In this document: positions 5,634 to 36,071 of the stretch, piece by piece
Layout: each line of letters opens with the position of its first letter
Position numbering within the stretch: position 1 is the first letter of the stretch
Virus record (IMG/VR): IMGVR_UViG_3300020042_009382
Coordinates: 1 to 38,710 of that record
DNA length: 38,710 nt
DNA from: a virus
Taxonomy: Duplodnaviria; Caudoviricetes
Reading direction: 5' to 3' (one strand)
Made by a program: the position numbers and the translations under genes
The notes under the pieces: model-generated
Databases searched by the model: none
What the model was told of the DNA's origin: nothing
What the model saw: only the letters and a program-made list of their open reading frames with translations

Positions 5634-5641
5634 TATTTATA
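5634..5641 (-). promoter_or_regulatory. T4-type late promoter TATAAATA
   Basis: Exact TATAAATA on the minus strand, 17 nt upstream of the gp8 ATG. Confidence 0.8.
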
Positions 5642-14600: not shown

Positions 14601-17219
14601 ATTATCAATTTTTATATAATAAGTTCCGTTATTAATCAAGGTTGAGCTTGCAAATCCGACACCAATTGCAGCATTTCCATTGGAATTGTAAATTACAGAT
14701 TCACCATTGACTAAATTGTGGTCAGTTAAAAATGTAAGTTGTCGTGTAGTTGTACTAATGCCGCCAGAATTTGTAGTTGCTCTGCCATCAAAAAATATTT
14801 CTCTTACTCTTTTTGTAAGAATTGGCTGAAGAACAGCACCAGAACCATTTCCACCACTTACTCCAATTGATACAATTGAATTAATATCATAATCTTGTGA
14901 ATCTATATAAACTTCTTTGATACTACCACTAATTACTGGATGTACTAAAGCAGTTATTCCGATTCCAGATGAAACTGTTAGTAATGGTGGATTAATAACG
15001 TCATAGTTGGTCCCACCATTTAATACATCAATAGATTCCAATGGACCATAATAAATTTTATCATTTGATTTATAATTAGCAATCTCTACACCATTGACCA
15101 ACATTCCAGTTGGACCTGGAATTGTAACTTGTCCAGTCCCATTTTCAGTATTTACATTTAATGGAAATTTTTTAAATACCTTTTGAGCACCAATTTGCTC
15201 AGATCTTTGAGAATAGATTGTAAATGTGTGCTTACCACTTGAAGGTCCAAATGTTAAATAATTGGATCCACCAATAAATGATCTGGAAGAGAATAATTTA
15301 ATTTTTTTCTTATCCTCCGATTGAATTTTAATATAGTAACTGCCAGTTTCTAATCCAACTAAAGGACTCAGTGCTGGTTGGTAATAAATTCTATCACCAT
15401 CAATAAAATTAACTGGATTGTCAAATGCTATAGTGGAATAAGTGCCATCACCAACAGCGTCTGTTAGTATTCCAACTGTACCATTATTAATTGATGATGT
15501 ATTAATATTTTTTGTTATTTCATAAGAGGGTAGTGAATTTGACGCAGAATACGCATAATCTTGATCGGTATATAAATTCAATATATCCGATAAAATAGCA
15601 TTATTTCCAAATTCAATTGGAACTACTGAACTACTTGCAGTATTAATTTTTCTTCTTAAATCATATTTCATTCCAGAATCTGGAGTAAATGATAGATTAT
15701 TTAAAATAACTTTATTTTTTCCAACAATATTTGAAATGTATGCAATATTTGTAGTAGAAGATGCGACATTATTTGTATCTCTTTCAACAATTTCAACTCT
15801 ATCTCCAATTTTTAAACTTGATTTATCAATTGGGCTTGTTAAAATGAAATTGTTGATATCTTCTATTTGATATCTTGAACTAGTATTGTATATCCAAGAA
15901 TTTGCAAAAATTTGTTTATAGGTTTTATTCTGTTCCGGATTTTGAATTAAATCTCCAAGATTTTTAACAGAAATAATATCACCTTCATTAACACTTAGAT
16001 TATCGGACACTTGTACAAATTGAGACAATGCTCCAGCAAGTCTTAATTCAACTTTCTTAGTGAGATCTCCATCTTCATAACCATAATAAATTTCATCAGA
16101 TCTTACATCATTTGTAGAAGAAATTGTGGATGTAATACCAATACATCCAAAAAATTGATTTATACTCTTACTTGTGTAAGTAATGGTATTAATGCCCGAT
16201 ATGATTGTTCCAATTCCTGCAAATCCAATTGTAGAATCAACAGAAATTACAGAAGATCCAATAGAAACATTTTCAAGGCATTTTGTATTCGGTGTAATTG
16301 TAAAATTACCTTCAACTGCAGAAATATCACTATATCCAACAAAGAGTGAAATTTTAAAATATTGCTTATTATTCCTAGTAAATGGTTCTACCTCAGAGAT
16401 GGATGCACTTGTAATATCATCAGTTGATTTTTTGATAGTTTGTCCAACCAGTTTGGAAGGATCTCCAGAGATTCTTTCTGTTATTACAACTTCTCTTCTA
16501 ATAAATTCTGCAGATGATGGTTTGATTAAAAATTCTTCTAAATTTACAACTCTTGGAGTTACTCCATAAAGAACATTAAATAAAATTCTAAATGATTCAT
16601 CTGTTCCTTTTGCCTGATAGAACGATCTTGCTTCCTTTATAAAATTACCAACGTTTAAATTAGAAACAAAGTCAAGATCCTCCAATCCAGGTGTTAGGGT
16701 ATATTTTAATTTTTTGTAAAATTCTTTTAAAAATAATGAACTGAGATTCTGTACAGAAGAATTTGTAGAATGAATTTTTGCAGTTGATTCTGAAAATACT
16801 AATTCTTGCTGATTTAAATTTGCATGATAACTTGTAATACCACTAAATCCACGAATACAACCAGTAAATGTATTTGTAGTTAATCCAGTATATGTAACAA
16901 TTTCATCATCAATTTTTAATAGACCATAATTTTGTGGAAATCCCTTAGTAGTACTGACTGTGATTGTAGTGTTTGTAGATGAAATTTCAGTAGTAGTATA
17001 TGTACTATCTACTACTACTTCGGGAGTTAAGTTATCAAGTTTTAAATATTGATCTAAATTTTCTGCAATATCAATTGGACCACCTTGATATTCCTGAGAA
17101 ATATAATATTGCTTTAAAAATTCTGCTGCATTGGGGCTTTCATCCAAAATAAAATTTGGAAGTTGGCTCTCAATAACTTGCTGAACCTTAACTCTAGACT
17201 CAAATCCAGTCTGTATCAT
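5637..17219 (-). CDS. gp7: Giant baseplate wedge initiator, gp7-like (3860 aa)
   Basis: N-terminal FLKQYY and FYQAKGTDESFRILFNVLYG motifs; IIGWAYDGNPIYG segment; many GGSGY, NHxF and GIGTT repeats; lies between gp6 and gp8. Confidence 0.8.
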   Translation of the reverse strand: MIQTGFESRVKVQQVIESQLPNFILDESPNAAEFLKQYYISQEYQGGPIDIAENLDQYLKLDNLTPEVVVDSTYTTTEISSTNTTITVSTTKGFPQNYGLLKIDDEIVTYTGLTTNTFTGCIRGFSGITSYHANLNQQELVFSESTAKIHSTNSSVQNLSSLFLKEFYKKLKYTLTPGLEDLDFVSNLNVGNFIKEARSFYQAKGTDESFRILFNVLYGVTPRVVNLEEFLIKPSSAEFIRREVVITERISGDPSKLVGQTIKKSTDDITSASISEVEPFTRNNKQYFKISLFVGYSDISAVEGNFTITPNTKCLENVSIGSSVISVDSTIGFAGIGTIISGINTITYTSKSINQFFGCIGITSTISSTNDVRSDEIYYGYEDGDLTKKVELRLAGALSQFVQVSDNLSVNEGDIISVKNLGDLIQNPEQNKTYKQIFANSWIYNTSSRYQIEDINNFILTSPIDKSSLKIGDRVEIVERDTNNVASSTTNIAYISNIVGKNKVILNNLSFTPDSGMKYDLRRKINTASSSVVPIEFGNNAILSDILNLYTDQDYAYSASNSLPSYEITKNINTSSINNGTVGILTDAVGDGTYSTIAFDNPVNFIDGDRIYYQPALSPLVGLETGSYYIKIQSEDKKKIKLFSSRSFIGGSNYLTFGPSSGKHTFTIYSQRSEQIGAQKVFKKFPLNVNTENGTGQVTIPGPTGMLVNGVEIANYKSNDKIYYGPLESIDVLNGGTNYDVINPPLLTVSSGIGITALVHPVISGSIKEVYIDSQDYDINSIVSIGVSGGNGSGAVLQPILTKRVREIFFDGRATTNSGGISTTTRQLTFLTDHNLVNGESVIYNSNGNAAIGVGFASSTLINNGTYYIKIDNNTTIKLYQSISDYSSGINTVGFSTYNNTGIHKFRTTSYKNTISEIKIINGGSGYTNRKLIVKPTGISTSNHTINFENHGFNNGELVTYSYETSTIGISTLSQYYILKNDNDSFRVCDAGIGGTNPSNYNRQNYTKFSSTGSGYQYFNYPNISVSIQYTSVGFGTTTQGYQTLIATPKVRGSLVDAYLYETGTGYGTTILNFERSPSISIKNGKEAQLKPIITNGIINAVNIQYGGLEYYSNPDLIVTDSTGQGSGAELRPVITNEKITDVKIINAGIGYSSTSTTIQVKASGSNALFKSSIRPLTVNNNFRFGNELLIETENKLQYSVCGYFNTLRQSFSDTGTSVSNIIGWAYDGNPIYGSYGYSNSEDRNSAPKLLTSGYTLNTSNIIDRPAGISAGFFVEDYVYTNSGDLDEYNGRFGKTPEFPNGTYAYFAPLEVSTFEPQFPYFIGNYYRSNTLEENSTLDQSYDFNGTNLLRNTLPYKVSDNYAGNDFIIETDQINRQRSIVESVTIGNINDFDIINSGSNYKVNDVLKFDNTNTKGGGLIARVSSIEGKNIVELNTSVQTYEGAIFTWENEGEVKVSILPYHNLSDNDYVVISGFSTNLSKLNNSYQIGVSSYYSNVFKNIPTTSTVGLTTEVYVTQLPTSVSVGSSITIGAETLQILEVFRNLNILKVKRGSTGVSHTATTQINFIPDSFTISQNIDYFESKVNDRVFFNPKESVGVGTTAGITNTIISQFGDSTITKNIPTQGIYIENHPFTNNQRVAFASNGDPIAISTSPTGSQFDLPQNVYVTNKNKNTIGIKTTLNSSEVFFRNNGSDADQYSFESSYSQLTGKIKKIKSAVSISTYHELTTGDIIKLNVQPNLSVGIGTSTSVYVKRDATTGNILINPIGFNSTGINTTSSTIAINSHNLKTGDKILYSANLIASGLSTGSYYVYKIDDNNIKLCETYIDVSTIPPTTVSIASTGGSNHSITLINPQIESIKNNNLVFNLSDNSLSEYEFKIYYDQNFNNEFVSTASTSEFNLLGIGTVGISTNASLTIKYDSNLPSKLYYNLEKTGYISTSDITVSNYSEILFVDSVYNSNYSISGIGSTTFNISLVKVPEKLTYSQNECDALSYTTNSISAKGPIDKINIVSGGIGYKKLPVFTGSDSIDGQDAYVVAKSQNIGNVREVRIIDDGFEYSSDKTLQPIAYISPTVTIKNSNTIDTIAVTDGGRGYTNPPSIVIVDSITGEKIDSGILETVITGSSISAVNIVQEPRGVPETTVQLFTSNNTNGISIQKVESSSTGIFTCFITTPVLGFSTNPFNIGDKVFVEGIQKIGTDGSGFNSEDYGYQFFTVSGYSVGILDEVVINLSNIGLTTNTGIAKTIQDSIGNIIKSTDYPSFEVVQKVSSFIIGEAIVSNNIERDLIITDYDKTSIKVYGSYDLSIEEVITGKESGNIATIDSIKVNSGKFDVDYSVRKDLGWTNNIGKLDEDDQVIADNDYYQNLSYTVKSPITYQNLRTQVNSLLHTSGLKNFADTGITSTTNSGISSSSNATTIIYDIIEENRVDTIYDFDLVKDIDIIGSSSKFLKLKNKKLTDYTECKTNVVLKVDDISRQFSNLNGEPSDFLNIFELDLTTSYNNLLFRVSSADNSKIQLTELVLLNDGSDNFILEKGTIVNVGAGLTHISGEELGSFSIVTNEFNKTYLQFTPTDSYNVDYDLKLLKSGFNSSSPGIGTTSIGFIDLTGSNRIVTSGITTSIISVNSNKFTSLYVNTQVIEAGANDMNFVESYLTHDGTDTYISQYYFDSEYQIYNYSGNFIGSFGANISSGILSLNYTNDSSNDVTIRSKIVGFGTTAVGVGTYRFKLSGQLNEYERTAIYQSNYSSTVSAASTEVISLNKNDFNAVKSLIKISVGSTSALHQIMMVQDTANAYIQQSPFLSIGSTNGIGTFGAEYSGNNFILKFYPNSSITSKIDVLSFNQCLYTILDDVNIPPDLLYGASSESVEVDFYNAINGNRINRTEFNLTSDGYPIFAKTFDPSETSILNKTTGVFTIPNHFFSNLEKLVYTPKSTFIGIGSVSVGIGSTLNSVGVVTTLLPSDVYVIKLSNNAFKLSTRQDYATLGIGVTFTSNGQGNAHQLEMFKKNEKAIITIDNLVQYPLLFTPISYTLSGNGGQIGVGSSIFALSGISTISPKNILKIDDEYMGVINVGLGTTNIGPITNNGTISLVEVTRGFVGSSASSHTDSGTARIYKGSYNIVGNSIFFTESPRGNPQIERTSSNLIFETSDFTGRVFLRNNYTTNQIYDDISNQFTGIGRTFTLTVGGANTVGLGSTGGNGILFINSVFQTPTTDNNPTNNFRIIENSISGISSVVFSGITSANTLDVITSQSDVNQNQIPRGGIIISLGSSTGLGYAPLVGAAVTAVVGAGGSIKSVGIGTTDNLGSGYNGIVSIGISVYQSGHAGAAATITASVGAGGTLSFNIIGGGSGYTNPKIFVSEPSYENLGVTGISRLGIGTTTSTGIGLLLNVEVGASSTTGIGSTYYEVTRFNISRQGYNFQRGDVFKPVGLVTDSRLGSPLSEFKLTVINTFTDSFAAWQFGEFNYIDSIANYQDGIRTRFPLYYNSELLSFEVQEGSQVNLANALLIVINGVIQDPGVAYEFDGGTSFVFTTAPKAEDNVAIFFYRGTAGDDSTLITDINETLKRGDTVQVLKNNSISGTMSQDKRIIFDLSFSDKFETNLYSEQGVDTENNKPLSWIKQKVDRKINGENVYKTRDSIESLVYPTAKVIKNFSNTNTEIFVDNAEFFNYDVDTNFDALIVNGISTTSSGAVELISNISLINGFSGIITGITTSAGSGGNPLALRFHLNASSYVGLQTGYPIYIFDTRVGRGVTSIDSSDSSVVGIGSTFLDNIYYIHQFSSSGTTGIITCNIKSNTSVVGLASTGSVSNPVGKFSWGRLSGFTRSSSPISIGVSGNTVDVGLSTFPTIQRRGTGIRNTGALSKLL

Positions 17220-21279: not shown

Positions 21280-21308
21280 ATCATACATCATTATCTATGT
21301 CCTGTCAA
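21280..21308 (-). promoter_or_regulatory. Sigma70-like promoter
   Basis: TTGACA-17 bp-TATGAT upstream of the ATG at 21257. Confidence 0.75.
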
Positions 21309-21481
21309 TCTTCCTCTTTTTCACTTAATACTAGATCTGTACCTTCTAGTGAAAAGTTTATCTCACTATCCTCATACCAAGAAAGATCATTCACAATCCA
21401 TTCGGGTATTACAATATAATGCTCCCCAGTAATTGGATCGACTTGTAGTGCCTCAAAATTTTTGCCGGAATTTTTTTTCAT
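21305..21481 (-). CDS. Small AbrB/MazE-like protein (58 aa)
   Basis: Manual ORF MKKNSGKNFEALQVDPITGEHYIVIPEWIVNDLSWYEDSEINFSLEGTDLVLSEKEED; pattern resembles a swapped-hairpin domain. Confidence 0.6.
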   Translation of the reverse strand: MKKNSGKNFEALQVDPITGEHYIVIPEWIVNDLSWYEDSEINFSLEGTDLVLSEKEED

Positions 21482-21959: not shown

Positions 21960-22032
21960 GGGGTCCGGGTCGTTTGGTTCTTACGTATCCTACAGCATCG
22001 GAGGGGGCATCCCTCCCCTCCCTTGTGCCGGT

Positions 22033-22194
22033 TCAGCGACCGTCCCGATACTCCCCGATGATTCGCCCATCCTGCCGAACCTGTGCATACCCATATTCCT
22101 CAGAGAGGGAGAGGCACAGATCCCAGGCGCGGTCCTGATCGGTGGTTTCGTTTTCCCAGGGGGCAGAGGGGCAGATCACGGAAAGTTGGGTCAT
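22033..22194 (-). CDS. Hypothetical cassette gene (53 aa, MTQLSVICPSAPWE...)
   Basis: Start moved to the ATG after the repeat leader; the 22281 start in the track runs through the promoter. Confidence 0.75.
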   Translation of the reverse strand: MTQLSVICPSAPWENETTDQDRAWDLCLSLSEEYGYAQVRQDGRIIGEYRDGR

Positions 22195-22268
22195 GGTCGG
22201 TTTCGTTTGGTTCTTAAGTATCCTACAGCATCGGAGGGGGCATCCCTGCCCCCTAGTGTGCCAGTGCC

Positions 22269-22454
22269 TCAGGCGGCACACAGCAGAGCAGATTCTAGAT
22301 TCACCTCTCTGGTGTCTAGCAAAGCATAATCATGATTTGCTTCTAGCTCCACCAGGTAAGCAGTAGCAGTGGAGAAACAATCAAACAGGCGCAGAGTAGA
22401 GAACACCTCGCCCTCGTAATCAATTCCAGCGATGACAGCGTAGACTTTAGACAT
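22269..22454 (-). CDS. Hypothetical cassette gene (61 aa)
   Basis: Exactly fills the space between two repeat copies. Confidence 0.78.
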   Translation of the reverse strand: MSKVYAVIAGIDYEGEVFSTLRLFDCFSTATAYLVELEANHDYALLDTREVNLESALLCAA

Positions 22455-22527
22455 TTGGTTTCCCTTTGTTTGGTTCTTACGTATCCTACAGGCAACCCCA
22501 CCCCCCAGAGGGGGCAGGGTGGACAGT

Positions 22528-22773
22528 TCAGAGATCGGCGATCAGTTCGGCAATCGCTTCGGCATCGATCTTAAGGTCGTTCCAGCGGCACCCGTCTGGG
22601 GTCTCAGTCGATCCACACTCCCACAGCAGCGCCAGAAGGTCAGCATAGGAGCGGCACTGGCGGGCAGCATGGTAGAGTCCCTCATCATTCTGAATCCAGA
22701 GGGCAACGTTCCAGGTTTCCCAGTTTGCCCACCCGTTGTAGGTTTCGGTCTGAGCAGCGGTGGCGGTAGGCAT
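22528..22773 (-). CDS. Hypothetical cassette gene (81 aa, YNGWANWETWNVALWI motif)
   Basis: Between two identical 51-bp repeats; motif familiar from phage hypotheticals. Confidence 0.82.
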   Translation of the reverse strand: MPTATAAQTETYNGWANWETWNVALWIQNDEGLYHAARQCRSYADLLALLWECGSTETPDGCRWNDLKIDAEAIAELIADL

Positions 22774-22848
22774 CGGGTCGGTTTCGTTTGGTTCTTACGT
22801 ATCCTACAGGCAACCCCACCCCCCAGAGGGGGCAGGTGTGCCAGTTGC

Positions 22849-22965
22849 TCAACTGTCCTGGGTTTCCTCCTGGGGGGCATCCGATGCGATAGACTCCAGG
22901 ATCTGCAGGAGTTCCTCACCATTAGAGGCACGATTCAGCAGAGCAGATGCAATTTCGAAAGTCAT
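22849..22965 (-). CDS. Small acidic peptide (38 aa)
   Basis: Manual ORF MTFEIASALLNRASNGEELLQILESIASDAPQEETQDS; stop lies in the dyad spacer. Confidence 0.68.
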   Translation of the reverse strand: MTFEIASALLNRASNGEELLQILESIASDAPQEETQDS

Positions 22966-22996
22966 GATAAAATGTAAATCAGTGTGGTTTGAGTTA

Positions 22997-23018
22997 GGGT
23001 GTCTTTAGAGCGCATCCC
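22997..23018 (-). promoter_or_regulatory. Putative leader RNA hairpin, loop CGCUCUAAAGA (copy 1)
   Basis: GGGATG-CGCTCTAAAGA-CACCC; similar loop with a different stem at 24435-24457. Confidence 0.5.
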
Positions 23019-23031
23019 ATTCTCTATACTC

Positions 23032-23160
23032 TCAGACGATGTTAGCGGGTGATCCACAACTCCGATAGAATGAAACCATATTCTGTGCCTCTGCAATTGT
23101 CTTGAATTGTTGAGTCTTCCAGATCTGCTGATAAGGTGAGAAGAATTGAATGGTGATCAT
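23032..23160 (-). CDS. Small hypothetical protein (42 aa)
   Basis: Manual ORF MITIQFFSPYQQIWKTQQFKTIAEAQNMVSFYRSCGSPANIV. Confidence 0.68.
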   Translation of the reverse strand: MITIQFFSPYQQIWKTQQFKTIAEAQNMVSFYRSCGSPANIV

Positions 23161-23198
23161 CGTTGTTAATCAGTGGGAAAGGAGTTTGAGTGAATCAG

Positions 23199-23219
23199 AG
23201 GGGGAGAATTGCTCCCCCT
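23199..23219. other. Intergenic 8-bp stem hairpin without U tract
   Basis: AGGGGGAG-aattg-CTCCCCCT just after the stop at 23226. Confidence 0.55.
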
Positions 23220-23225
23220 TAGAGT

Positions 23226-23552
23226 TTAGGCAAGGCGCATTCCAGAGAAGAAAGGAATGCTGATGAATTCAGTTCCAAACTTAGAACGAAGGAACCAATT
23301 GAACTGCTTTTGGAAGACACCCTCACCACCAAGTCCGTGCTCCTGAAGAATAGCATTCAGGCGGGACTTGGTGGTATTGGATTGATACCCACCATCATAC
23401 AACCTGATGAAAGTATCACCCACCTCAGCAATCTTATTGCCGTGCAGATAAACGAAACTCACACCCCCAATGTTAACGACTTCCGTATTGTCACACTTCC
23501 AATCAACACTTTTGGTGATGGCAGCGTTCATTTGGCGTTCGATTTTGCGCAT
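23226..23552 (-). CDS. Cyanophage hypothetical protein (108 aa, MRKIERQMNAAI...)
   Basis: VYLHGNKIA and TTKSRLNAIL motifs; follows the repeat leader. Confidence 0.82.
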   Translation of the reverse strand: MRKIERQMNAAITKSVDWKCDNTEVVNIGGVSFVYLHGNKIAEVGDTFIRLYDGGYQSNTTKSRLNAILQEHGLGGEGVFQKQFNWFLRSKFGTEFISIPFFSGMRLA

Positions 23553-23624
23553 TGGGTTGGTTTCGTTTGGTTCTTACTTATCCTACAGGGTCACCGACCC
23601 CCCAGAGGGGGCAGGTGTGCCAGT

Positions 23625-24395
23625 TCAGTAACTGACCACCTCGGCATTGACGGAGGACAGAAGTTGTGCTACCTTATCCTGTTGCAGTTTGAATACAACT
23701 TGCGAATTGTTGTTTGCCTTACTGTTGCCCAGGAATGCACCGATTCCGTTGTTGTTAGTCACGCGAATTCGCAGACCACAATCATACTCTTTGACGCCAT
23801 CAGTAAAGAGTAAACGACGGGAGGATTTTGCACAACCTTTCAGGAAAGGAGTGTAACCCTCTTGAATGTAACGTACTGCAGGATGTTGGTCTGCATCATA
23901 AGTGTAGAGAACATTTGCTAGAGTATCGTTCACGGCAACCTTCATTTCGCTGTTCGCATCAATCATTTGAGTTTGAATGAAGGACACCAACTGTTCAGCA
24001 CTGAAGGAGTCAAGAACTCCACTGCAGAGATTGTTAAATTGTTGGCGAACTTGCTTCACAAAGGAGATAGCGGAACGCTGAGAAGCAGGCAGTTGGCGAT
24101 GTTCTTTGACTTGCTCAATGAAGGAAACAAAAGTATCACCAGCAACGTCAGATACCTTGCTTGTGTTGATCCAGTCAAACGAACCATTCTTAACACCTTT
24201 CTTGCGCTTGATAGTCCATTTGCGGTTACGTTTGGGGTCAAATAAATCTGCCTTGTTCTTCGTCCCTCCCATGAGATATGTAGAGAATGAAGCAAGATCA
24301 AATGCAATCAAAAGATTCCTAGTATCTTCTTCGTTCTTGATGCCTTCATAATGAACGCGCCCAGTTGTATCAAAACCGGAAGTTCCTTTTGCCAT
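23625..24395 (-). CDS. Hypothetical protein, possibly a PD-(D/E)xK nuclease (256 aa)
   Basis: Clear ORF; E..KAD-x9-TIK spacing resembles restriction-like nucleases (inference). Confidence 0.5.
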   Translation of the reverse strand: MAKGTSGFDTTGRVHYEGIKNEEDTRNLLIAFDLASFSTYLMGGTKNKADLFDPKRNRKWTIKRKKGVKNGSFDWINTSKVSDVAGDTFVSFIEQVKEHRQLPASQRSAISFVKQVRQQFNNLCSGVLDSFSAEQLVSFIQTQMIDANSEMKVAVNDTLANVLYTYDADQHPAVRYIQEGYTPFLKGCAKSSRRLLFTDGVKEYDCGLRIRVTNNNGIGAFLGNSKANNNSQVVFKLQQDKVAQLLSSVNAEVVSY

Positions 24396-24434
24396 GATGT
24401 TTAAAGTGGGGTTCCACGATTAGAGTTTACAGGT

Positions 24435-24457
24435 GATCCGTCTTTAAGGCGCGGGTC
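24435..24457 (-). promoter_or_regulatory. Putative leader RNA hairpin, loop CGCCUUAAAGA (copy 2)
   Basis: GACCCG-CGCCTTAAAGA-CGGATC between the -10 box at 24478 and the ATG at 24395. Confidence 0.5.
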
Positions 24458-24523
24458 GTTCCTTGGTTGATGAATTAATTATAGGGCATCAGGGGTCCCC
24501 AGGGTCAGATGGTGGACAGTCCC

Positions 24524-24733
24524 TCAATTGGCACGTTTGGCAGCAGTGAGGATCAGATCCAGCAGCAGGAGGGCAACGACTGCCTTCCAGAACCCGAGGG
24601 CAGTGATTCCGAACCAACCCAGGACCAGGACCAGCAACCATGCCTTAAGGGCAAGCTCAGCAACTCCCACCAGCAGGAGACCGAAGGCAGTGCCTGCGAT
24701 GGTTGCGATCTTAAGTGCTTTGGTTTTGGTCAT
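24524..24733 (-). CDS. Small membrane protein (69 aa)
   Basis: Long hydrophobic segments; bounded by repeat copies. Confidence 0.75.
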   Translation of the reverse strand: MTKTKALKIATIAGTAFGLLLVGVAELALKAWLLVLVLGWFGITALGFWKAVVALLLLDLILTAAKRAN

Positions 24734-24809
24734 CGGGGTTGCTCCCTTTGCTTGTTGAATGTATTGTAGACCCTATGGGGTGCCCTGCTAGGGGGTAGTG
24801 GACAGTTAG

Positions 24810-25703
24810 TTAACTGGCACACTGAAACCTCCCGTGGTTGAAGTTAGCATAAGCGAAGACCTCACGATTAACCAACTTAAACATACCAAACTCATTGGTC
24901 ATTACATAACCCTCAGAGTCGATTCTGTTGTAATTGATGTATGCCTGAGGTCCATCATTGCGGCAGAGGTATAGTGCGTCTTCCTTAATCGACTTAACCA
25001 ACTTCCAGAAACTAATCAGAATAGGATTCTCAAAGTCCTCAGGATTGACTTCCTTACCTTCACGAATACAGGCATTGAGTTGCTTTGTAATTTGTGCCGC
25101 AACTTTGGGGGTCACAAATTCTACACCAAGAGCCATCACCTTAGCAAACTTAGAAACCTCTTTAAGGTCTGCAAAGTATTCGGCACCGGCAAAGATTGAT
25201 GCCGTAGGTTGTACAAATTTGACGGTCTCAGTATCATTCCAGATCGAACGATCAGGCAGTGCTACAGCATCACGAAGATCGCTCTCAGCATAATAGCAGG
25301 TGTGCGGTGCAATGATTATATTTTGTTCTACTACTTCTGGGAACTGATAGGTGATAGTGTTGGGGGTGTATTCAGTAGATCCACCAAACCCAATAAAGTC
25401 CCCTTGATAAACGGTGTTTGTAAAAGGTAGGCAATCAAAACAAGCGTGAAGAATGTTTGCAACTTCGCCAGAATGGTTCGCATCAATTTCCTCATGTGAT
25501 TCGTTGATTTTGATTTTAACTTTGTTAAAGACACTTTTGGTGCCCACGAAGAAGTTTCCGGTTGCAGGATTGCGACCCCAGACAATAGCAGGAGCACCAT
25601 CAATCTTAACACTGAGATGACCGGGATTGAAGAACCAATCTAACACGGAAAGGTCACCGGTCAGGATCGAATCTTCGGGGTGCTGAAGGTGGGTGTTTTT
25701 CAT
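24810..25703 (-). CDS. Phage protein with ligase-like nucleotidyltransferase motifs (297 aa)
   Basis: SVKIDGAP (KxDG), VYQGDF, SEGYV and FKLV appear in the order of ligase motifs I, III, IV, V. Confidence 0.6.
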   Translation of the reverse strand: MKNTHLQHPEDSILTGDLSVLDWFFNPGHLSVKIDGAPAIVWGRNPATGNFFVGTKSVFNKVKIKINESHEEIDANHSGEVANILHACFDCLPFTNTVYQGDFIGFGGSTEYTPNTITYQFPEVVEQNIIIAPHTCYYAESDLRDAVALPDRSIWNDTETVKFVQPTASIFAGAEYFADLKEVSKFAKVMALGVEFVTPKVAAQITKQLNACIREGKEVNPEDFENPILISFWKLVKSIKEDALYLCRNDGPQAYINYNRIDSEGYVMTNEFGMFKLVNREVFAYANFNHGRFQCAS

Positions 25704-25756
25704 TCCATTATTCTACAGGGTCAGGGTGGGGGATCGGGTCCCCCTTGTGCCAGTTC

Positions 25757-25969
25757 TCAGACTGTCACATACATTACTTTATCAGGTGCCCGGTAGATAG
25801 AATCACCATAGAAGACTTCCAACCTCACAGTGTTACCATAGAAGTCAGAAGGTAAACCATAACGAAGGAAGTTGCGAGTTGTCGAATAATCAGAAGACAA
25901 TCCCCGATCAGTCATTCCGACTTCATTATACTCACCCTTGGCATTCTGCTTGGTGTAGATGATCTTCAT
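25757..25969 (-). CDS. Hypothetical cassette gene (70 aa)
   Basis: Bounded by repeat copies. Confidence 0.75.
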   Translation of the reverse strand: MKIIYTKQNAKGEYNEVGMTDRGLSSDYSTTRNFLRYGLPSDFYGNTVRLEVFYGDSIYRAPDKVMYVTV

Positions 25970-26041
25970 CGGATCGGTTTCGTTTGGTTCTTACTTATCC
26001 TACAGGGTCAAGGGACGGTCTCAGGGGGTCACTGTGCCACT

Positions 26042-26221
26042 TCAGATACTGGCACAGTTGTTGTATTCGGTCATCACATCTGAGACCTTTTCTAAGACGG
26101 TTTTGTAGATACCCACATCCATCCATTCGGGGCACTCATCGTGAAACATTACCAAATCATAAAGTATAGAGAACTCTTCAAATGTGAAGGCGTCCATCAT
26201 ACTGTAGCGGTTGGTTTCCAT
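26042..26221 (-). CDS. Hypothetical cassette gene (59 aa)
   Basis: Manual ORF METNRYSMMDAFTFEEFSILYDLV...EYNNCASI; stop in the dyad spacer. Confidence 0.65.
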   Translation of the reverse strand: METNRYSMMDAFTFEEFSILYDLVMFHDECPEWMDVGIYKTVLEKVSDVMTEYNNCASI

Positions 26222-26313
26222 TTACTTTGTTTGGTTGACTTGTCAATTATGGCACCTCTAGGGGTGCTTTGGGTCAGATAGTGGACAGTTCTTCAACTGT
26301 CACACCCCATCAC

Positions 26314-26442
26314 TCATTTGTTCAGAGGTGATTTGTAGAACGAACGAAATACTGAAACCACGATGATTGCGGTGCTGATAATACCAATCAACCCAAGGTA
26401 GGTTACAGTGTCGCCAGTGAAAGTGTAAAAGTCAGGTGTCAT
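26314..26442 (-). CDS. Small single-pass membrane protein (42 aa)
   Basis: Manual ORF MTPDFYTFTGDTVTYLGLIGIISTAIIVVSVFRSFYKSPLNK. Confidence 0.68.
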   Translation of the reverse strand: MTPDFYTFTGDTVTYLGLIGIISTAIIVVSVFRSFYKSPLNK

Positions 26443-26443
26443 T

Positions 26444-26569
26444 TTAGTAATCAATGTTAGAGTTCAGGTACTCATTCACATCGAACTTCTCATCATTAAG
26501 TTCGGGAATATCCAGATCAAAGATCTCACCTTGACTATCAGCAATCTCAGACCAGAGTTCATCAAACAT
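26444..26569 (-). CDS. Very acidic peptide (41 aa)
   Basis: Manual ORF MFDELWSEIADSQGEIFDLDIPELNDEKFDVNEYLNSNIDY. Confidence 0.7.
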   Translation of the reverse strand: MFDELWSEIADSQGEIFDLDIPELNDEKFDVNEYLNSNIDY

Positions 26570-26671
26570 TGGGGATCTCTCAGGAACAAATGTAATATAG
26601 AACGGATTGGGCAGGATTTCAAGGGGTCTTGTGCCAGTTCAGCAACCGGCAACCACCCCCTGCACTAAGTG

Positions 26672-27097
26672 TTAGAAACTGCTGGAGAATACGTAACCAT
26701 CTACGAAATCATAATCATAACGAAGATTCTGTTCCCAGGTTGCCTGCCAATCAACAACTACGTAGGCAGGAATATCATACCCATAAACCTCAGTGATAAC
26801 TTCTTCGGTAAATGTTGCCTCGTCATGGTATACACCACGGAATGCATCTTCTACGTTCTCAACATAATGCACCGCACCGTGATATTCAATGAAGGCATCA
26901 ACTACATCATAACCAATACTCTCGCCAACACGAACATACTCATCATAATAGGCAACGAAGTCTGCCTCATTGTGCTCATCAATGAACTTAAGAGCATCAT
27001 CTAAATCATACTGACCTTCGATACAGTTCTCTTCGATGAATTCAACAGTCTCAATTGCGAAGACTTCTTTGTAGTTTACTTGCAGAGTCACGGGCAT
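26672..27097 (-). CDS. ardA: ArdA-like antirestriction protein (DNA mimic)
   Basis: 33 D/E against 5 K/R; C-terminal EDAFRGVY..EATFTEE..IPAYVVVDWQATW..L..DY.FVDGYVF fits the ArdA C-terminal pattern. Confidence 0.7.
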   Translation of the reverse strand: MPVTLQVNYKEVFAIETVEFIEENCIEGQYDLDDALKFIDEHNEADFVAYYDEYVRVGESIGYDVVDAFIEYHGAVHYVENVEDAFRGVYHDEATFTEEVITEVYGYDIPAYVVVDWQATWEQNLRYDYDFVDGYVFSSSF

Positions 27098-27175
27098 TGG
27101 AGGAATCTCAGGAACAAATGTAATGTAGAACGGATCCGGTCAGAAGTCAATGGGCAGTGGACAGTTCTCAGACCG

Positions 27176-27379
27176 TCACACCTCACTAATTAACTTTAAC
27201 CGACGAATGATATCATATATTTCCATTTGATCCATATCGATCTCGTTCATATCAACAGGAGCAAATTCTTCAAGATTCACTGTACCATTGGTGTAGATCG
27301 GGGCATAATACAATTCGTCTCCATCTTCCTGAGACAAAGTATAAACGCAACCGTGATCAGTAGCAGTTAGAAAAATCAT
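27176..27379 (-). CDS. Acidic hypothetical protein (67 aa, MIFLTATDHG...)
   Basis: Start moved to the ATG after the family B leader. Confidence 0.72.
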   Translation of the reverse strand: MIFLTATDHGCVYTLSQEDGDELYYAPIYTNGTVNLEEFAPVDMNEIDMDQMEIYDIIRRLKLISEV

Positions 27380-27481
27380 TGGGTTTCTCAGGTACAAATG
27401 CAATGTAGGACGAATTCGGTAATATTGCAAGGGGGTCTGTGCCGGTTCTCCAACTGTCCTCATTCTCAATAAGACCTATAC

Positions 27482-27516
27482 TATTGAGAATCAATAAGAT
27501 ATCTAATTGAGAATAA
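27482..27516. repeat. Left arm of a 35-bp inverted repeat
   Basis: TATTGAGAATCAATA-N9-ATTGAGAATAA; reverse complement at 28145-28179. Confidence 0.85.
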
Positions 27517-27542
27517 GGACCAATCTTCGAACTGGCACAAGA

Positions 27543-27692
27543 CTAGAAAGGATCGTACTCTTTGATGCTACAATGAACTTCTTCATCCCCTTGAAGTTCT
27601 AGTAATTCTTTCCAGTCCATATCTACCACATCTAGATCATCATAACATATGATGTCTAATGTAACAGTAAGCAGGCGTTTCTGTGCTAACAT
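27543..27692 (-). CDS. Small acidic protein (49 aa)
   Basis: Manual ORF MLAQKRLLTVTLDIICYDDLDVVDMDWKELLELQGDEEVHCSIKEYDPF; TG-A-TATAAT upstream at 27719-27727. Confidence 0.7.
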   Translation of the reverse strand: MLAQKRLLTVTLDIICYDDLDVVDMDWKELLELQGDEEVHCSIKEYDPF

Positions 27693-27724
27693 AATGTCTA
27701 GATGTGTATGTGTACTAGATTATA

Positions 27725-27865
27725 TCATGCATAATGCTTATATGCTAGTGCTTCGAGATCATGTGCATCTCGTGCATATTCCTCGTCGAGTTCATGTGTA
27801 TACTCGTCGAGATCGCATGATGCATCGTTGCCTGATGTATAGTCGAGATCATAGTCGTCGTACAT
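27725..27865 (-). CDS. Very acidic peptide (46 aa)
   Basis: Manual ORF MYDDYDLDYTSGNDASCDLDEYTHELDEEYARDAHDLEALAYKHYA, downstream of two promoters. Confidence 0.68.
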   Translation of the reverse strand: MYDDYDLDYTSGNDASCDLDEYTHELDEEYARDAHDLEALAYKHYA

Positions 27866-28003
27866 AGCTCGTCGAGATCCTGTGTGAGTACTAGATGATT
27901 ATAGCACATGTCTCGACGAGATGCAAGTATGATGTGCAGGTCTCGACGAGAATGTTGTATGTATATATGTGCCTCGACTAGAATTATAGCACATCTAGTC
28001 GAG
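27782..28003. repeat. Cluster of CTCG(A/T)CGAG-type palindromes (8 copies including variants)
   Basis: Starts at 27782, 27803, 27839 (variant), 27868, 27912, 27942, 27973 (variant), 27995 (variant). Confidence 0.8.
27898..27926 (-). promoter_or_regulatory. Sigma70-like promoter with extended -10
   Basis: TTGCAT-17 bp-TATAAT with TG; spacer contains CTCGTCGAG. Confidence 0.75.
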
Positions 28004-28011
28004 ATTCGCAA
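27983..28011 (-). promoter_or_regulatory. Sigma70-like promoter with extended -10
   Basis: TTGCGA-17 bp-TATAAT with TG; spacer contains CTCGACTAG. Confidence 0.7.
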
Positions 28012-28061
28012 CCCTTATGCTAAGTTTTGTGTGGGATCTTGGAGATTTCTGCGGGGGGGGG

Positions 28062-28090
28062 TTGACTTTATAACGTGCGCGTGTTATAAT
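28062..28090 (+). promoter_or_regulatory. Near-consensus plus-strand sigma70 promoter with no downstream ORF
   Basis: TTGACT-17 bp-TATAAT with TGn extension. Confidence 0.75.
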
Positions 28091-28144
28091 CCGCTCGCTT
28101 AGGTCACAAGTCTCAGAGGTCTTTATGATGCCTTTATGATGCCT

Positions 28145-28179
28145 TTATTCTCAATAACATACACTATTGATTCTCAATA
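28145..28179. repeat. Right arm of the 35-bp inverted repeat
   Basis: TTATTCTCAAT-N9-TATTGATTCTCAATA. Confidence 0.85.
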
Positions 28180-28258
28180 AGAGAACACTATTAGACCCAT
28201 AATAAAAGCTAATTTATATTTATTAATACATTTTTTAATGTTTTTTTACTATAATTCA

Positions 28259-30399: not shown

Positions 30400-30648
30400 T
30401 TAACAGGCACCAGAAATTGGATTACCAATCTGAGGAATTACATTAAAGTCAATCACCTCATAACCACATTCAACACGCTCATTCACCTCATCAAACATAT
30501 CATTCTTGCGAAGAAATTTCTTTGATGTGGTTTCAGTACCGGTGAAGGATATAATCCTCAAAAACCAATCACTTAACAGAGTTCCATCAACAAACTTAAC
30601 AGGATAATAATCAACAATACTATTGCTGGTGGTGGACTGGAGTTTCAT
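30400..30648 (-). CDS. Hypothetical protein (82 aa)
   Basis: Follows a promoter/dyad copy. Confidence 0.75.
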   Translation of the reverse strand: MKLQSTTSNSIVDYYPVKFVDGTLLSDWFLRIISFTGTETTSKKFLRKNDMFDEVNERVECGYEVIDFNVIPQIGNPISGAC

Positions 30649-30729
30649 CGGGTTCTCTTGATTGTCTTCTTATTATAGGGCATTCAGCAGTCGATTGGGG
30701 AAGCACTGTGCCACCTTGTGAACTGGTAC
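30649..30729 (-). promoter_or_regulatory. Outlying promoter/dyad element copy
   Basis: TATAAT at 30672-30677; GTGCCACCT-tgtg-AACTGGTAC at 30708-30729. Confidence 0.7.
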
Positions 30730-31152
30730 GGGATTGGTTTCATTCATATACTGTTGATATAAGATCACTTCTTGTTCCCGTGCTTCTATTTCATGCGGTT
30801 GATCCCAATATTCAATATCCTCCACATTAACCGAATTATAATACCTCTTATCACGTTTCGCACGAAGAGATCCAGTCACCCACTGTTGCAGATGTACCAG
30901 TTCGTGTAATAATGTCTGAATATACAACTCTTGATTCATATAGGTATCAAGTTCAATTAGAAACCTACGAGGACGATAGGATTTGCCAATATAATCACAA
31001 TATCCATATACACCTTCACGTTTCAGTCCACGATGAAGAATCTCAACATAAAGCTGATGTCTGGGTAGAAACTGATTCAGAAACCAAATGGTAACATCCG
31101 TACATATTCTTTTGTGATAACCATATCCAGTAGTTTCAATGAAAGATTGCAT
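30673..31152 (-). CDS. HExxH zinc metallopeptidase-like protein
   Basis: TLLHELVHLQQW plus downstream PHEIEA. Confidence 0.72.
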   Translation of the reverse strand: MQSFIETTGYGYHKRICTDVTIWFLNQFLPRHQLYVEILHRGLKREGVYGYCDYIGKSYRPRRFLIELDTYMNQELYIQTLLHELVHLQQWVTGSLRAKRDKRYYNSVNVEDIEYWDQPHEIEAREQEVILYQQYMNETNPVPVHKVAQCFPNRLLNAL

Positions 31153-31555: not shown

Positions 31556-31701
31556 TTTGGTGGAGGAAGTTTTGGAGCAGACATCTCTATAGTTTGTTTC
31601 TGTAACCCAAGCATAAGACCATCAAGGGATTGTGCGATTGGACCAAATCCAACCGTTGCGGCAATGATACCAAAGATAGTTCCGGCAATAAAATTAATCA
31701 T
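31552..31701 (-). CDS. Small membrane protein (49 aa)
   Basis: Manual ORF MINFIAGTIFGIIAATVGFGPIAQSLDG...; ATGA overlaps on both sides. Confidence 0.7.
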   Translation of the reverse strand: MINFIAGTIFGIIAATVGFGPIAQSLDGLMLGLQKQTIEMSAPKLPPPK

Positions 31702-32054
31702 TTTGCATACAAATAAGCACCTGCCCAATCTGCATTCTCAAGCAACCATTCGCGCTGCTCAATGATACGAAGATCATAACGAACACCTTTAGCAGGTGCT
31801 TTCCAACCAGCAGACTTGTAGACTTCACCAGTCTTCTTATCCACAAAAGCATGAACTGAACGATTGTTGCGAACAGAAGAATCAATCATAATGACTTTGT
31901 GATACTTATGACCCGATTCGATGATGTAGTTGTATCCTTCGGGACCGGCATCTTTGAGAGCATCACAGAGCATCAGGGTCCACTTCCTAACATTCAACTG
32001 AATAGTGTTGCGGGCGTCCTGTTGGGCAGCGTAGTCGGCAAAGGAAGCAGTCAT
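31698..32054 (-). CDS. Phage hypothetical protein (SVHAFVDKKTGEVYKSAGWKAPAKGVRY)
   Basis: ORF track; follows a promoter/dyad copy. Confidence 0.82.
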   Translation of the reverse strand: MTASFADYAAQQDARNTIQLNVRKWTLMLCDALKDAGPEGYNYIIESGHKYHKVIMIDSSVRNNRSVHAFVDKKTGEVYKSAGWKAPAKGVRYDLRIIEQREWLLENADWAGAYLYAK

Positions 32055-32134
32055 GGGGGTTGTTTGCTTATGAGACTATTGTAGGGCATCCAGGAGGGGT
32101 TTCCGTGCCTCCTGTACCAGTTCATCAACTGTCT
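32055..32134 (-). promoter_or_regulatory. Outlying promoter/dyad element copy
   Basis: TACAAT at 32078-32083; GTACCAGTT-catc-AACTGTCT at 32114-32134. Confidence 0.7.
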
Positions 32135-33053
32135 GTTGTGCGATGCGAATTGCATCGGGATTGGTGTCGAGGGTGGTACAGTTCCTACCCAAACCAAAAG
32201 CAGAAATAGCAGTGGTCCCAGATCCGCAAAAGGGGTCCAGTACCCACCCATTCACGGGACAAGACGACTTTATGATACGTTCTAACAGTTTTAGGGGTTT
32301 TTGTGTGGGATATTTACGCTTATTAGACTCACTTCGGGAGATAAAGTATACATCATCCCATAGATTCTGCACCGGAACACCCTTGGACTCATGAGAATAG
32401 ATTTTTTTGTAGATGTTATTGCTGCCGTAGTGCAGTAGACCCTGAGCGTCCATGGATTCCAATTTTTCCTTTGTTATACGAAACCCATACTGAGGATTGT
32501 ATCCCTTGTACTCAAATCTTGCGGAAGGACGACTCTTCTCACCAGTTACTTTAGCCAGGGCATAATAACCAACTTCATCCTTATTCTTGAAACTATTCTC
32601 GGCATAAACTGGATCCAATGAGGTATATTCGACCTCAAAGTATGGTTTACCTTTTTGAAGAACAATAATACTATCTACAATATTACCCCACCCATTCTTT
32701 AGATTGTTCTTTGGTCCACTACGTTTCCATGAGATGTTTGTATAGAATGCATCACGAACTTTAGCATTAACTTTAGACAGTACTAAGGCATTGCCAATAA
32801 AGTTATTGTGAGCATACAACCAACCATTATTATTCAGTTTTGCAAATGAATTGTTAATTATTTCGGCATACCAATCAATATAATCATCAAATGAACTCCA
32901 GTTATCACTGAATCCTTTTTCTTGACCATCTTCTTCTTGCATGGTAAAGTCCCTCTGCAAACCAAAGGGAGGGTCCATATAAACTAAATCAAATGTTTGG
33001 TTGATTGTACTCAGTTCTTCAACAGGTTTGTTTAGAATGTTAATTTCAGGCAT
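32076..33053 (-). CDS. Beta-class N6-adenine/N4-cytosine DNA methyltransferase
   Basis: N-terminal DLVYMDPPF; C-terminal YPTQKP and VLDPFCGSGTT. Confidence 0.92.
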   Translation of the reverse strand: MPEINILNKPVEELSTINQTFDLVYMDPPFGLQRDFTMQEEDGQEKGFSDNWSSFDDYIDWYAEIINNSFAKLNNNGWLYAHNNFIGNALVLSKVNAKVRDAFYTNISWKRSGPKNNLKNGWGNIVDSIIVLQKGKPYFEVEYTSLDPVYAENSFKNKDEVGYYALAKVTGEKSRPSARFEYKGYNPQYGFRITKEKLESMDAQGLLHYGSNNIYKKIYSHESKGVPVQNLWDDVYFISRSESNKRKYPTQKPLKLLERIIKSSCPVNGWVLDPFCGSGTTAISAFGLGRNCTTLDTNPDAIRIAQQTVDELVQEARKPLLDALQ

Positions 33054-33055
33054 TA

Positions 33056-35898: not shown

Positions 35899-36071
35899 TG
35901 ATTTACCTCAATTAAATTTTTATACTTAATACAATCTGGTGTTCTTCGTTGACAGTGTTCAATATCAACAACTCTTGGTTCCGAAGTTACTGTGGGAGGT
36001 TCTTCATAAAATAATACAATTGGACCACATTGTAGAAATGCACAAACCATCGTATTCAATAAGTTTAACAT
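35877..36071 (-). CDS. Hypothetical protein (64 aa)
   Basis: ORF track; fills the gap. Confidence 0.6.
   Translation of the reverse strand: MLNLLNTMVCAFLQCGPIVLFYEEPPTVTSEPRVVDIEHCQRRTPDCIKYKNLIEVNQWHSEHK

What the first reader, a model, noticed from the sequence alone, without database searches (positions are those of the whole stretch)
21960..27459. Array of one-promoter gene cassettes sharing a dyad + hairpin + -10 element
Seen: 13 copies in 5.5 kb, plus outliers at 30649-30729 and 32055-32134, each directly upstream of a small unrelated gene or short gene group. The dyad GTG(C/GA)CAGTT-N4-AACTG(G/T)C(C)AC has its proximal arm ending 38-41 nt from the -10 box in all 15 copies, while the sequence between varies. 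Known, from memory: promoter early stem-loop cassettes shuffle genes in RB49-like T4 phages, and a distinctive early-gene element was reported in cyanophage Syn9, so the motif may be partly described. Inference: a dimeric factor binds the dyad, and the element doubles as the exchange point of an integron-like, recombinase-free cassette system for host-takeover and anti-defence genes. No candidate binding protein or recombinase is evident in this window.
Basis: partly seen in the sequence, partly recalled or inferred. Interest (0 to 1): 0.85.

Follow-up and report, generated by a model that had tools for sequence, protein, structure and literature searches.

The report
Cyanophage early promoters, host PlmA-type site
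A freshwater virus of cyanobacteria puts the same 24-base two-armed DNA box in front of the promoters of its small, likely early genes, and close relatives have swapped genes at these promoters; the box is likely a docking site for the host's own regulator PlmA, because soil Acidobacteria that carry a PlmA-like protein keep the same box beside its gene.

Summary
The repeat is real: 13 copies in 21960-27461 plus 2 outliers, a 24-bp dyad ending 28-31 nt before a -10 box (0.08 per shuffled window). A hairpin is present in only about half. The window is a T4-like cyanophage fragment. The dyad occurs in all 8 cultured T4-like cyanophages tested, including Syn9, so it is probably the published early-gene element (paper not readable here). 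Relatives gain, lose and reorder genes at the element (13 of 14 block ends), but crossovers scatter over its whole length and no recombinase was found: PeSL-like homology exchange, not an integron. The likely binder is host PlmA: 24 of 57 host Yfr2 promoters, whose MED4 version PlmA binds and activates, carry the dyad at the same position. Earlier scan notes on other genomes already proposed PlmA and gave me that lead. New here: Acidobacteria encode a full-length PlmA homologue, said in print to be cyanobacteria-only; it co-occurs with the identical dyad (7 of 9 versus 2 of 91 genomes) at the same spacing, often beside its own gene. Binding and start sites are untested.

The parts
21960..22047 (-). 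element 13 (last in transcription order): dyad 22024-22047, hairpin spacer 31 nt, -10 TAGGAT, leader
22198..22280 (-). element 12: dyad 22257-22280 (holds stop codon of ORF 22269-22454), hairpin spacer, -10
22455..22542 (-). element 11: dyad 22519-22542 (holds stop of ORF 22528-22773), hairpin spacer, -10
22528..22773 (-). cargo gene, DUF7249 / phrog_871, 81 aa
22774..22860 (-). element 10: dyad 22837-22860, hairpin spacer, -10
23226..23552 (-). cargo gene, Kyanoviridae Gp96 family (Syn9 gp90 homologue, which also follows a dyad)
23553..23639 (-). element 9: dyad 23616-23639 (holds stop of ORF 23625-24395), -10
24396..24535 (-). element 8: dyad 24512-24535 (holds stop of ORF 24524-24733), -10 TATAAT, long leader with a second repeated motif
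24524..24733 (-). 69-aa cargo gene; the 286-bp unit 24512-24797 is absent in relatives, joined within 9 shared bases of the proximal arm
24734..24821 (-). element 7: dyad 24798-24821 (holds stop of ORF 24810-25703), -10 TACAAT
24810..25703 (-). cargo gene, DUF6267 / phrog_455, 297 aa (anchor for related loci)
25704..25769 (-). element 6: dyad 25746-25769 (holds stop of ORF 25757-25969), hairpin spacer, -10 TAGAAT
25970..26056 (-). element 5: dyad 26033-26056 (holds stop of ORF 26042-26221), no hairpin, -10
26222..26304 (-). element 4: dyad 26281-26304, -10-like CATAAT
26570..26653 (-). element 3: dyad 26630-26653, -35-like TTGAAA 17 nt from -10, no hairpin
26672..27097 (-). cargo gene, anti-restriction protein family phrog_36653 (E 3e-26), 141 aa
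27098..27180 (-). element 2: dyad 27157-27180, -35-like TTGACT, no hairpin
27380..27461 (-). element 1 (first in transcription order): dyad 27438-27461, -35-like TTGCAA, no hairpin
27516..27539 (+). extra dyad facing the opposite way, with TACAAT 29 nt further on the plus strand
30649..30730 (-). outlier element: dyad 30707-30730, -10 TATAAT, before ORF 30400-30648
32055..32136 (-). outlier element: dyad 32113-32136, -10 TACAAT, before DUF7717 gene 31698-32054
21305..21481 (-). AbrB/MazE-like small gene (phrog_661) directly after the last cassette; rival candidate binder, not part of the repeat

Best explanation
Each repeat is a predicted promoter whose 24-bp dyad likely binds a dimer of the host GntR-family regulator PlmA, which would activate host RNA polymerase at these mostly -35-less promoters to drive the phage's likely early genes, and related phages have gained, lost and reordered genes at these repeats, most likely by ordinary short-homology recombination. 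Shown: the repeat, its fixed 28-31 nt spacing, its presence in T4-like cyanophages and in host Yfr2 promoters at the same position, its linkage to PlmA homologues in Acidobacteria, and crossovers spread along the element. From the literature: PlmA (PMM1637) binds and activates the MED4 yfr2 promoter. Inferred: that the copies are transcription starts, that the genes are early, that PlmA binds this arrangement of the half-sites on phage DNA, that it activates, and that the phage's general recombination machinery does the swapping. Because every unit carries its own promoter and the upstream gene often ends inside the dyad, an exchange anywhere in the element leaves both neighbours intact, which would explain why survivors show junctions there.
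For: Phage range: 5-23 matches per strand in 8 of 8 cultured T4-like cyanophages and 2 of 2 long contigs; 0 in T4, RB49, pelagiphage HTVC008M and T7-like P-SSP7, 1 in Ma-LMM01, 2 in DLP6 (control 6). 185 of 204 distinct viral sites have TANNNT at 28-31 nt; control windows 15-63. Host: a matrix from phage copies scores 10 bits or more at -70..-64 in 11 of 26 picocyanobacterial and 13 of 31 other cyanobacterial Yfr2 (Rfam Cyano-1) promoters, 0 in 11 control windows. Lambrecht 2018 (PMC6191309; parts 1-4 of 5 and Table S1 rows): PMM1637 pulled down by, shifts and activates the yfr2 promoter; its oligo #68 holds the same two half-sites, the downstream one 55 nt from the oligo end, i.e. about -65..-56, where the phage distal arm is predicted to lie. 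Acidobacteria: 73 of 123 exact chromosomal matches by record title, 50 of 73 with TANNNT at 28-31 nt, controls 1-9; 15 of the 123 loci hold a GntR gene homologous to PlmA over the effector domain too (HHalign 97.2%, E 3e-11, 205 columns) with the same H-x-N-T recognition helix; 6 of 12 loci fetched by protein carry the dyad, 0 of 18 other GntR loci; 7 of 9 genomes with the gene have the dyad against 2 of 91 without. Geometry: PlmA is close to YtrA (PMC4494728, passages), whose sites are typically 24 bp, one being GGTG-N16-CACC (PMC6746942, passages); this dyad is TGTG-N16-CACA; best solved-structure sequence hits are YtrA-type. No PlmA-like gene in 11 cyanophage records. Exchange: 13 of 14 unique block ends in five near-identical relatives lie in elements, 21% of the span; the 286-bp deletion with 9 shared bases is in 4 of 4 DNA runs beside the intact form; gene order differs in about 47 of 69 loci.
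Against: No binding or start-site data; RNA runs were contigs only. The site PlmA was shown to bind (MED4 CGRE1) has the half-sites tail-to-tail, not in the phage's arrangement. The exact consensus dyad plus -10 is nearly absent from picocyanobacterial chromosomes: 1 of 60 genomes besides a probable phage contig in G001; host copies score lower than phage copies (threshold 10 bits against a phage median of 24), and 33 of 57 Yfr2 promoters lack it. Acidobacterial genomes with gene and dyad may be related, so the Fisher p of 8e-8 overstates independence; 6 of 12 PlmA-like loci have no dyad. Elements make up 86% of the array's non-coding DNA, so junction enrichment cannot separate 'element-driven' from 'intergenic and selected'. 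An AbrB/MazE-like phage gene keeps its place after the array in three phages. The Syn9 transcriptome paper could not be read.
Confidence: 0.65

Rival explanations
1. A phage protein binds the dyad: the AbrB/MazE-like product of 21305-21481 as a repressor that shuts early promoters off, or a virion-delivered activator.
For: phrog_661 lies directly after the last dyad cassette in the window, Syn9 (53843) and P-SSM2 (69258) and is not found in HTVC008M, which has no dyads; its paralogue at 36065-36703 matches MazE_antitoxin. Phage sites are closer to consensus than host sites.
Against: DLP6 has the gene but no excess of dyads. It cannot explain the same dyad and spacing in bacterial chromosomes beside PlmA-like genes. 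It could still act in addition to PlmA.
Confidence: 0.14
2. PlmA binds the dyad but is not needed to start transcription: it represses or tunes the promoters according to host light and nitrogen state, or the many sites titrate PlmA away from host genes.
For: Most GntR/YtrA regulators are repressors (PMC6746942, passages); PlmA is about 200 dimers per cell and essential in S. elongatus (PMC5083789, passages), so replicating genomes with 15 or more sites could titrate it; 3 of 15 copies have a usable -35.
Against: The site lies upstream of the -35 position at a fixed distance, as activator sites do; 12 of 15 copies lack a -35 (3-6 mismatches); PMM1637 raised yfr2 and yfr4 reporter output (PMC6191309).
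Confidence: 0.13
3. The dyad is a dedicated site-specific recombination site of an integron-like cassette system.
For: 83 of 122 upstream ORF types stop within the first 14 bases of the dyad; 8 of 13 window copies hold the upstream stop codon; one deletion joins within only 9 shared bases.
Against: Crossovers scatter: family-weighted 3.3 distal arm, 2.2 centre, 2.4 proximal arm, 1.6 spacer, 5.9 -10/leader of 16 families; from the other side 5.4 spacer and 1.9 leader of 8. No tyrosine or serine recombinase family in 5 records. The consensus itself contains TGA and a T-to-A-rich centre, so stops arise there easily. Chromosomal copies are single promoter sites.
Confidence: 0.04
4. The element is a classic PeSL (terminator hairpin plus sigma70 promoter) and the dyad is an incidental conserved part.
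For: G-run/C-run hairpins in 7 of 15 copies just after a stop codon, like the GGGG...CCCC stems of RB49 PeSLs (PMC2839356, passages).
Against: The hairpin is optional, has no U-tract, and lies between the dyad and the -10 rather than upstream of a -35; the dyad and its spacing are the invariant parts.
Confidence: 0.04

Closest known systems
Early-gene 'novel regulatory element' of T4-like cyanophage Syn9 (Doron et al. 2016, ISME J 10:1437; recalled, not held in the library)
   Same: The same dyad at 28-31 nt from a -10 box stands at 7 places in Syn9 35-75 kb, before small genes gp55-gp90, and in 7 other cultured T4-like cyanophages.
   Different: I could not compare the published motif letter by letter. 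Density here is higher (13 in 5.5 kb). As recalled, the paper names no binding factor and no role in gene exchange.
CGRE1 site of PlmA/PMM1637 in yfr2 promoters (Lambrecht et al. 2018, PMC6191309)
   Same: Same 10-bp half-site; one half-site at the same distance from the start; many other cyanobacterial Yfr2 promoters carry the full phage-type dyad.
   Different: CGRE1 as tested has the half-sites tail-to-tail with 0-1 base between; the phage has them head-to-head across a 4-6 base centre. The paper calls CGRE1 restricted to marine picocyanobacteria and PlmA exclusive to cyanobacteria; the dyad and a PlmA homologue are found more widely here.
PeSL cassettes of RB49/phi1, PST/T4, nt-1/KVP40 (Arbiol 2010 PMC2839356, passages; Comeau 2014 PMC4122927, parts 1-2 of 3)
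   Same: Repeated early-promoter units between small genes in a variable region; exchanges at scattered points within the unit; no dedicated recombinase.
   Different: PeSLs have a terminator stem-loop upstream of a -35/-10 promoter; here the invariant part is a protein-type dyad, the -35 is usually missing and the hairpin is optional. Puxty 2015 (PMC4503421, passages) judged PeSL shuffling unlikely in S-PM2; S-PM2 does carry this dyad.
YtrA-subfamily GntR operators (PMC4494728, PMC6746942; passages)
   Same: 24-bp palindrome with distant half-sites; GTG-N16-CAC geometry.
   Different: YtrA proteins are short repressors of transporter operons; PlmA has a large extra domain (predicted periplasmic-binding-protein-like fold) and the site is in an activator position.
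Integron attC cassettes (recalled)
   Same: One-gene units, stop codons inside the repeat.
   Different: No integrase, no fixed crossover point, and each unit has its own promoter.

Membership tests
Syn9-type early promoter element | Same motif present in Syn9 before small genes | tested here: met
   7 copies in DQ149023.2 35-75 kb
Syn9-type early promoter element | Identity with the motif as published | not testable with these tools
   paper not held; no citing passage described it
Syn9-type early promoter element | Start site below the -10 box and early timing | not testable with these tools
   only contigs of RNA runs
PlmA (CGRE1) site | Half-site sequence | tested here: met
PlmA (CGRE1) site | Tail-to-tail 21-22 nt arrangement as in MED4 yfr2 | tested here: not met
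   phage copies are head-to-head; so not filed as CGRE1 itself
PlmA (CGRE1) site | Position relative to the promoter matches PlmA-linked host promoters | tested here: met
   24 of 57 Yfr2 promoters; 50 of 73 acidobacterial sites
PlmA (CGRE1) site | Bound by PlmA | not testable with these tools
   needs EMSA or pull-down
PeSL | Repeated promoter units between small genes of a variable region | tested here: met
PeSL | Indels and swaps map within the units | tested here: met
PeSL | Terminator stem-loop upstream of a -35/-10 promoter | tested here: not met
   hairpin in 7 of 15, lying over the -35 position; -35 in 3 of 15
PeSL | Excised mini-circles | not testable with these tools
   contigs only; no circle junction shown
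Integron | Integrase gene | tested here: not met
   none among 51 window ORFs or in 5 related records, two of them fragments
Integron | Single fixed crossover point | tested here: not met
PlmA subfamily (acidobacterial proteins) | Homology over the C-terminal effector domain, not only the GntR winged helix | tested here: met
   HHalign 97.2%, E 3e-11; single-pair BLASTP weak, 20%, E 0.002
PlmA subfamily (acidobacterial proteins) | One clade with cyanobacterial PlmA | tested here: inconclusive
   short, unevenly cut alignment, unresolved tree

The most novel reading that the evidence does not exclude
T4-like cyanophages, which have no known early or middle activator of their own, start infection by borrowing the essential host regulator PlmA: their early promoters are near-consensus PlmA operators, so the host's light and nitrogen state (through the PII-PipX-PlmA network) would gate the first step of infection, and any gene that recombines into the array is switched on at once. 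The true PlmA operator is the 24-bp TGTG-N16-CACA dyad, an activator-promoter architecture shared with an unrecognised PlmA branch in Acidobacteria.
Probability: 0.5. Interest if true: 0.8.

Novelty: new variant of a known kind. Interest (0 to 1): 0.6.

Why it matters
How T4-like cyanophages switch on their first genes is an open question (recalled from Doron 2016), and the DNA site and regulon of PlmA, an essential cyanobacterial regulator, are barely known. One gel shift with PlmA and this 24-mer tests both. If right, a host stress regulator controls the entry step of an abundant group of aquatic viruses, the dyad becomes a sequence tag for finding early anti-defence genes, and PlmA is not unique to cyanobacteria. 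The gene-shuffling side is a known principle (PeSLs) extended to cyanophages.

Tried and rejected
Doron 2016 could not be read; passages of five citing papers did not describe the motif. Literature searches: PlmA with cyanophage gave 2 unrelated listings, PlmA+GntR+Acidobacteri 0, PlmA binding-site/regulon since 2019 no direct hit among 15 listed of 160, the half-site letters 9 listings, none on this element by title; the ECF41 -35 element TGTCACA from that list (abstract listing only; motif recalled) was set aside because a -10 of sigma70 type follows at 28-31 nt. Rfam found no RNA family in the window. PADLOC matched 0 of 18 cargo proteins, NCBIfam 0 of the 8 cargo proteins given. Pfam on 88 of 111 ORFs flanking bacterial dyads gave mixed functions and one GntR. 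The average identity profile was dominated by the anchor gene and was replaced by per-family change points. The winged-helix tree was uninformative. The single-sequence PlmA model was poor (pLDDT 45); the alignment model (87) shows fold only, not DNA spacing. RNA contigs from 4 freshwater metatranscriptomes cover the array but cannot show starts, strand or level. G001:C1 and G004:C10, in Synechococcus and Nonlabens assemblies, carry dyad arrays and are treated as probable phage contigs, not host evidence. The gene-order count (47 of 69) uses tblastn of 16 small ORFs, one with approximate coordinates, and may include paralogues. Supplementary figure S1 of PMC6191309 (promoter alignment) was not read and bears on the CGRE1 comparison.
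Full report
Setting. The window is a 38.7-kb fragment of a T4-like cyanophage: baseplate genes at the left, best named matches S-SKS1 and S-SRM01 at about 68%, and near-identical sequence in freshwater metagenomes. The array lies in a GC-richer stretch of small minus-strand genes.

Observation. Thirteen dyads lie between 22024 and 27461 and two more at 30707 and 32113, each followed on the minus strand by a -10-like hexamer and a small gene. Shuffled windows give 0.08 such composites on average and a fixed core pattern gives 10 matches against 1.39 expected. Over 322 distinct copies from the window, 80 IMG/VR loci and S-SRM01 the consensus is TGTG(A/C)CA(G/C)T-N6-A(C/G)TG(G/T)CACA with spacing 29-30 in 282 of 322. 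The hairpin is optional: 7 of 15 copies, and the three copies without any fold at the start of the array have a -35-like hexamer instead.

Distribution in phages. The dyad is found 5-23 times per strand in all 8 cultured T4-like cyanophages tried and in 2 long contigs, and not above control in T4, RB49, HTVC008M, DLP6, P-SSP7 or Ma-LMM01. Syn9 has 7 copies in 35-75 kb before small genes. Among exact matches in a partial scan of viral contigs, 185 of 204 distinct sites have TANNNT at 28-31 nt. I take this to be the early-gene element of Doron et al. 2016, but that rests on recall and on its presence in Syn9; the paper was not available.

Gene exchange. Relatives with 98-99% identity in the 297-aa anchor differ in cargo. 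In five such loci, 13 of 14 unique ends of high-identity blocks fall in elements, which are 21% of the span but 86% of its non-coding DNA. The 69-aa gene unit is missing in L001, L002, L007 and L014; the join lies in 9 shared bases of the proximal arm in the first three and in the distal arm in L014, and 4 of 4 DNA runs show the same 286-base skip next to the intact form. Order differs from the window in about 47 of 69 loci. Crossovers are not at one point: change points fall in both arms, the centre, the spacer and the -10/leader, and the dyad takes 5 of 13 in-element ends, near its share. No tyrosine or serine recombinase family was found in 5 records. This is how PeSLs behave (PMC2839356, PMC4122927), not an integron. 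Stop codons cluster in the dyad (83 of 122 upstream types), but the consensus itself supplies them.

The binder. A scan of bacterial genomes for the exact dyad returned 123 loci (partial scan), 73 acidobacterial and 14 cyanobacterial by title. Earlier scan notes then pointed to PlmA and Yfr2, which I tested. Lambrecht 2018 shows PMM1637 (PlmA) pulled down by, shifting and activating the MED4 yfr2 promoter. Its promoter oligo has the same half-sites, tail-to-tail, with the downstream half at about -65 to -56, where the phage distal arm is predicted to lie. Across 57 distinct Yfr2 promoters, 24 carry the full phage-type dyad at -70 to -64, none in control windows. Against this, the exact consensus with a -10 is in only 1 of 60 picocyanobacterial genomes apart from a probable phage contig, so host copies are weaker than phage copies.

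Independent support from Acidobacteria. Fifty of 73 acidobacterial dyads have TANNNT at 28-31 nt. Fifteen of the 123 loci contain a roughly 300-aa GntR gene (only 80 loci had 1.5-kb flanks). These proteins align with PlmA end to end, share its recognition helix and match its effector domain by profile comparison (97.2%, E 3e-11); the family is large (2389 database hits to the C-terminal part). Fetched by protein rather than motif, 6 of 12 loci have the dyad, against 0 of 18 other GntR loci. In what appears to be the same draw of 100 genomes, leaving out the seed, 7 of 9 with the gene have the dyad and 2 of 91 without it do; kinship is uncorrected. Labella 2016 calls PlmA exclusive to cyanobacteria; my searches found no paper and no scan note on an acidobacterial branch. 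PlmA is close to YtrA, whose operators are 24-bp palindromes with distant half-sites, one being GGTG-N16-CACC, the geometry seen here. No cyanophage record tested encodes a PlmA-like protein (0 of 11).

Mechanism. Most likely a host PlmA dimer binds at about -66 to -43 and recruits sigma70 polymerase to promoters that mostly lack a -35, giving immediate expression of small host-takeover genes (one is an anti-restriction family member). The repeated promoter supplies short homology, and exchanges within it keep the upstream stop codon and the downstream promoter, so they survive. Binding, activation, start sites and timing are inferred. Rivals are a phage AbrB/MazE-like binder encoded just after the array, PlmA as modulator or decoy, and, least likely, a site-specific recombination site.

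Verdict. Real; a known cyanophage promoter type acting as PeSL-like junctions, with a testable host factor. The scan noted the element and the PlmA lead before on other genomes; the acidobacterial evidence is new. Interest 0.6; new variant of a known kind.

Noticed in passing
window 23003-23020 and 24440-24460 (minus strand); 26 contexts in L001-L082: A second mobile motif of about 25 nt ending in GCGCYYTAAAGAC, always on the transcript strand, in leaders, gene gaps and once inside the dyad-to--10 spacer; also a block end between relatives. No Rfam match.
   Followed up: partly
window 21305-21481 and 36065-36703: Two AbrB/MazE-like (phrog_661) genes; the first sits right after the last cassette, as in Syn9 and P-SSM2.
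   Followed up: partly
window 27500-28250: Mostly non-coding stretch with repeated TCTCGACGAGA-type palindromes and a dyad facing away from the array; possibly a replication origin (a similar note is e1-6356148).
   Followed up: no
L293, L292, P0001, L323-L334: Full-length PlmA homologues in Acidobacteriota (10 of 101 genomes) with the dyad beside the gene and before outer-membrane barrel, DUF2817 and small unknown genes: an undescribed regulon.
   Followed up: yes
L287 model m326e19aaba5f: PlmA's C-terminal domain is predicted to resemble ribose-binding (periplasmic binding protein type I) folds, hinting at a small-molecule effector (weak TM 0.3-0.4).
   Followed up: partly
G001:C1 (L092) and G004:C10 (L094); also L142-L143, L204-L205: Dyad arrays on contigs inside bacterial assemblies (Synechococcus, Nonlabens, Flavobacteriales, Polynucleobacter); probably cyanophage contigs, one with a DUF7717 gene like the window's.
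   Followed up: partly
G066-G105 sample: Yfr2 and PlmA track each other across the phylum sample: 13 of the 14 genomes with PlmA have a Yfr2 match, and none of the 27 without PlmA does.
   Followed up: partly
S-PM2 NC_006820 11348-11370: A dyad ends where Puxty 2015 places a 'potential stem loop' (11369-11391), if the numbering is the same record; that paper judged PeSL-type shuffling unlikely there.
   Followed up: no
window 5637-17219: A 3860-aa ORF between baseplate wedge genes, probably the long gp7-like structural protein.
   Followed up: no
window 32076-34111: DNA methyltransferase followed by a 351-aa protein with a weak ParB-like match, next to the outlier element.
   Followed up: no
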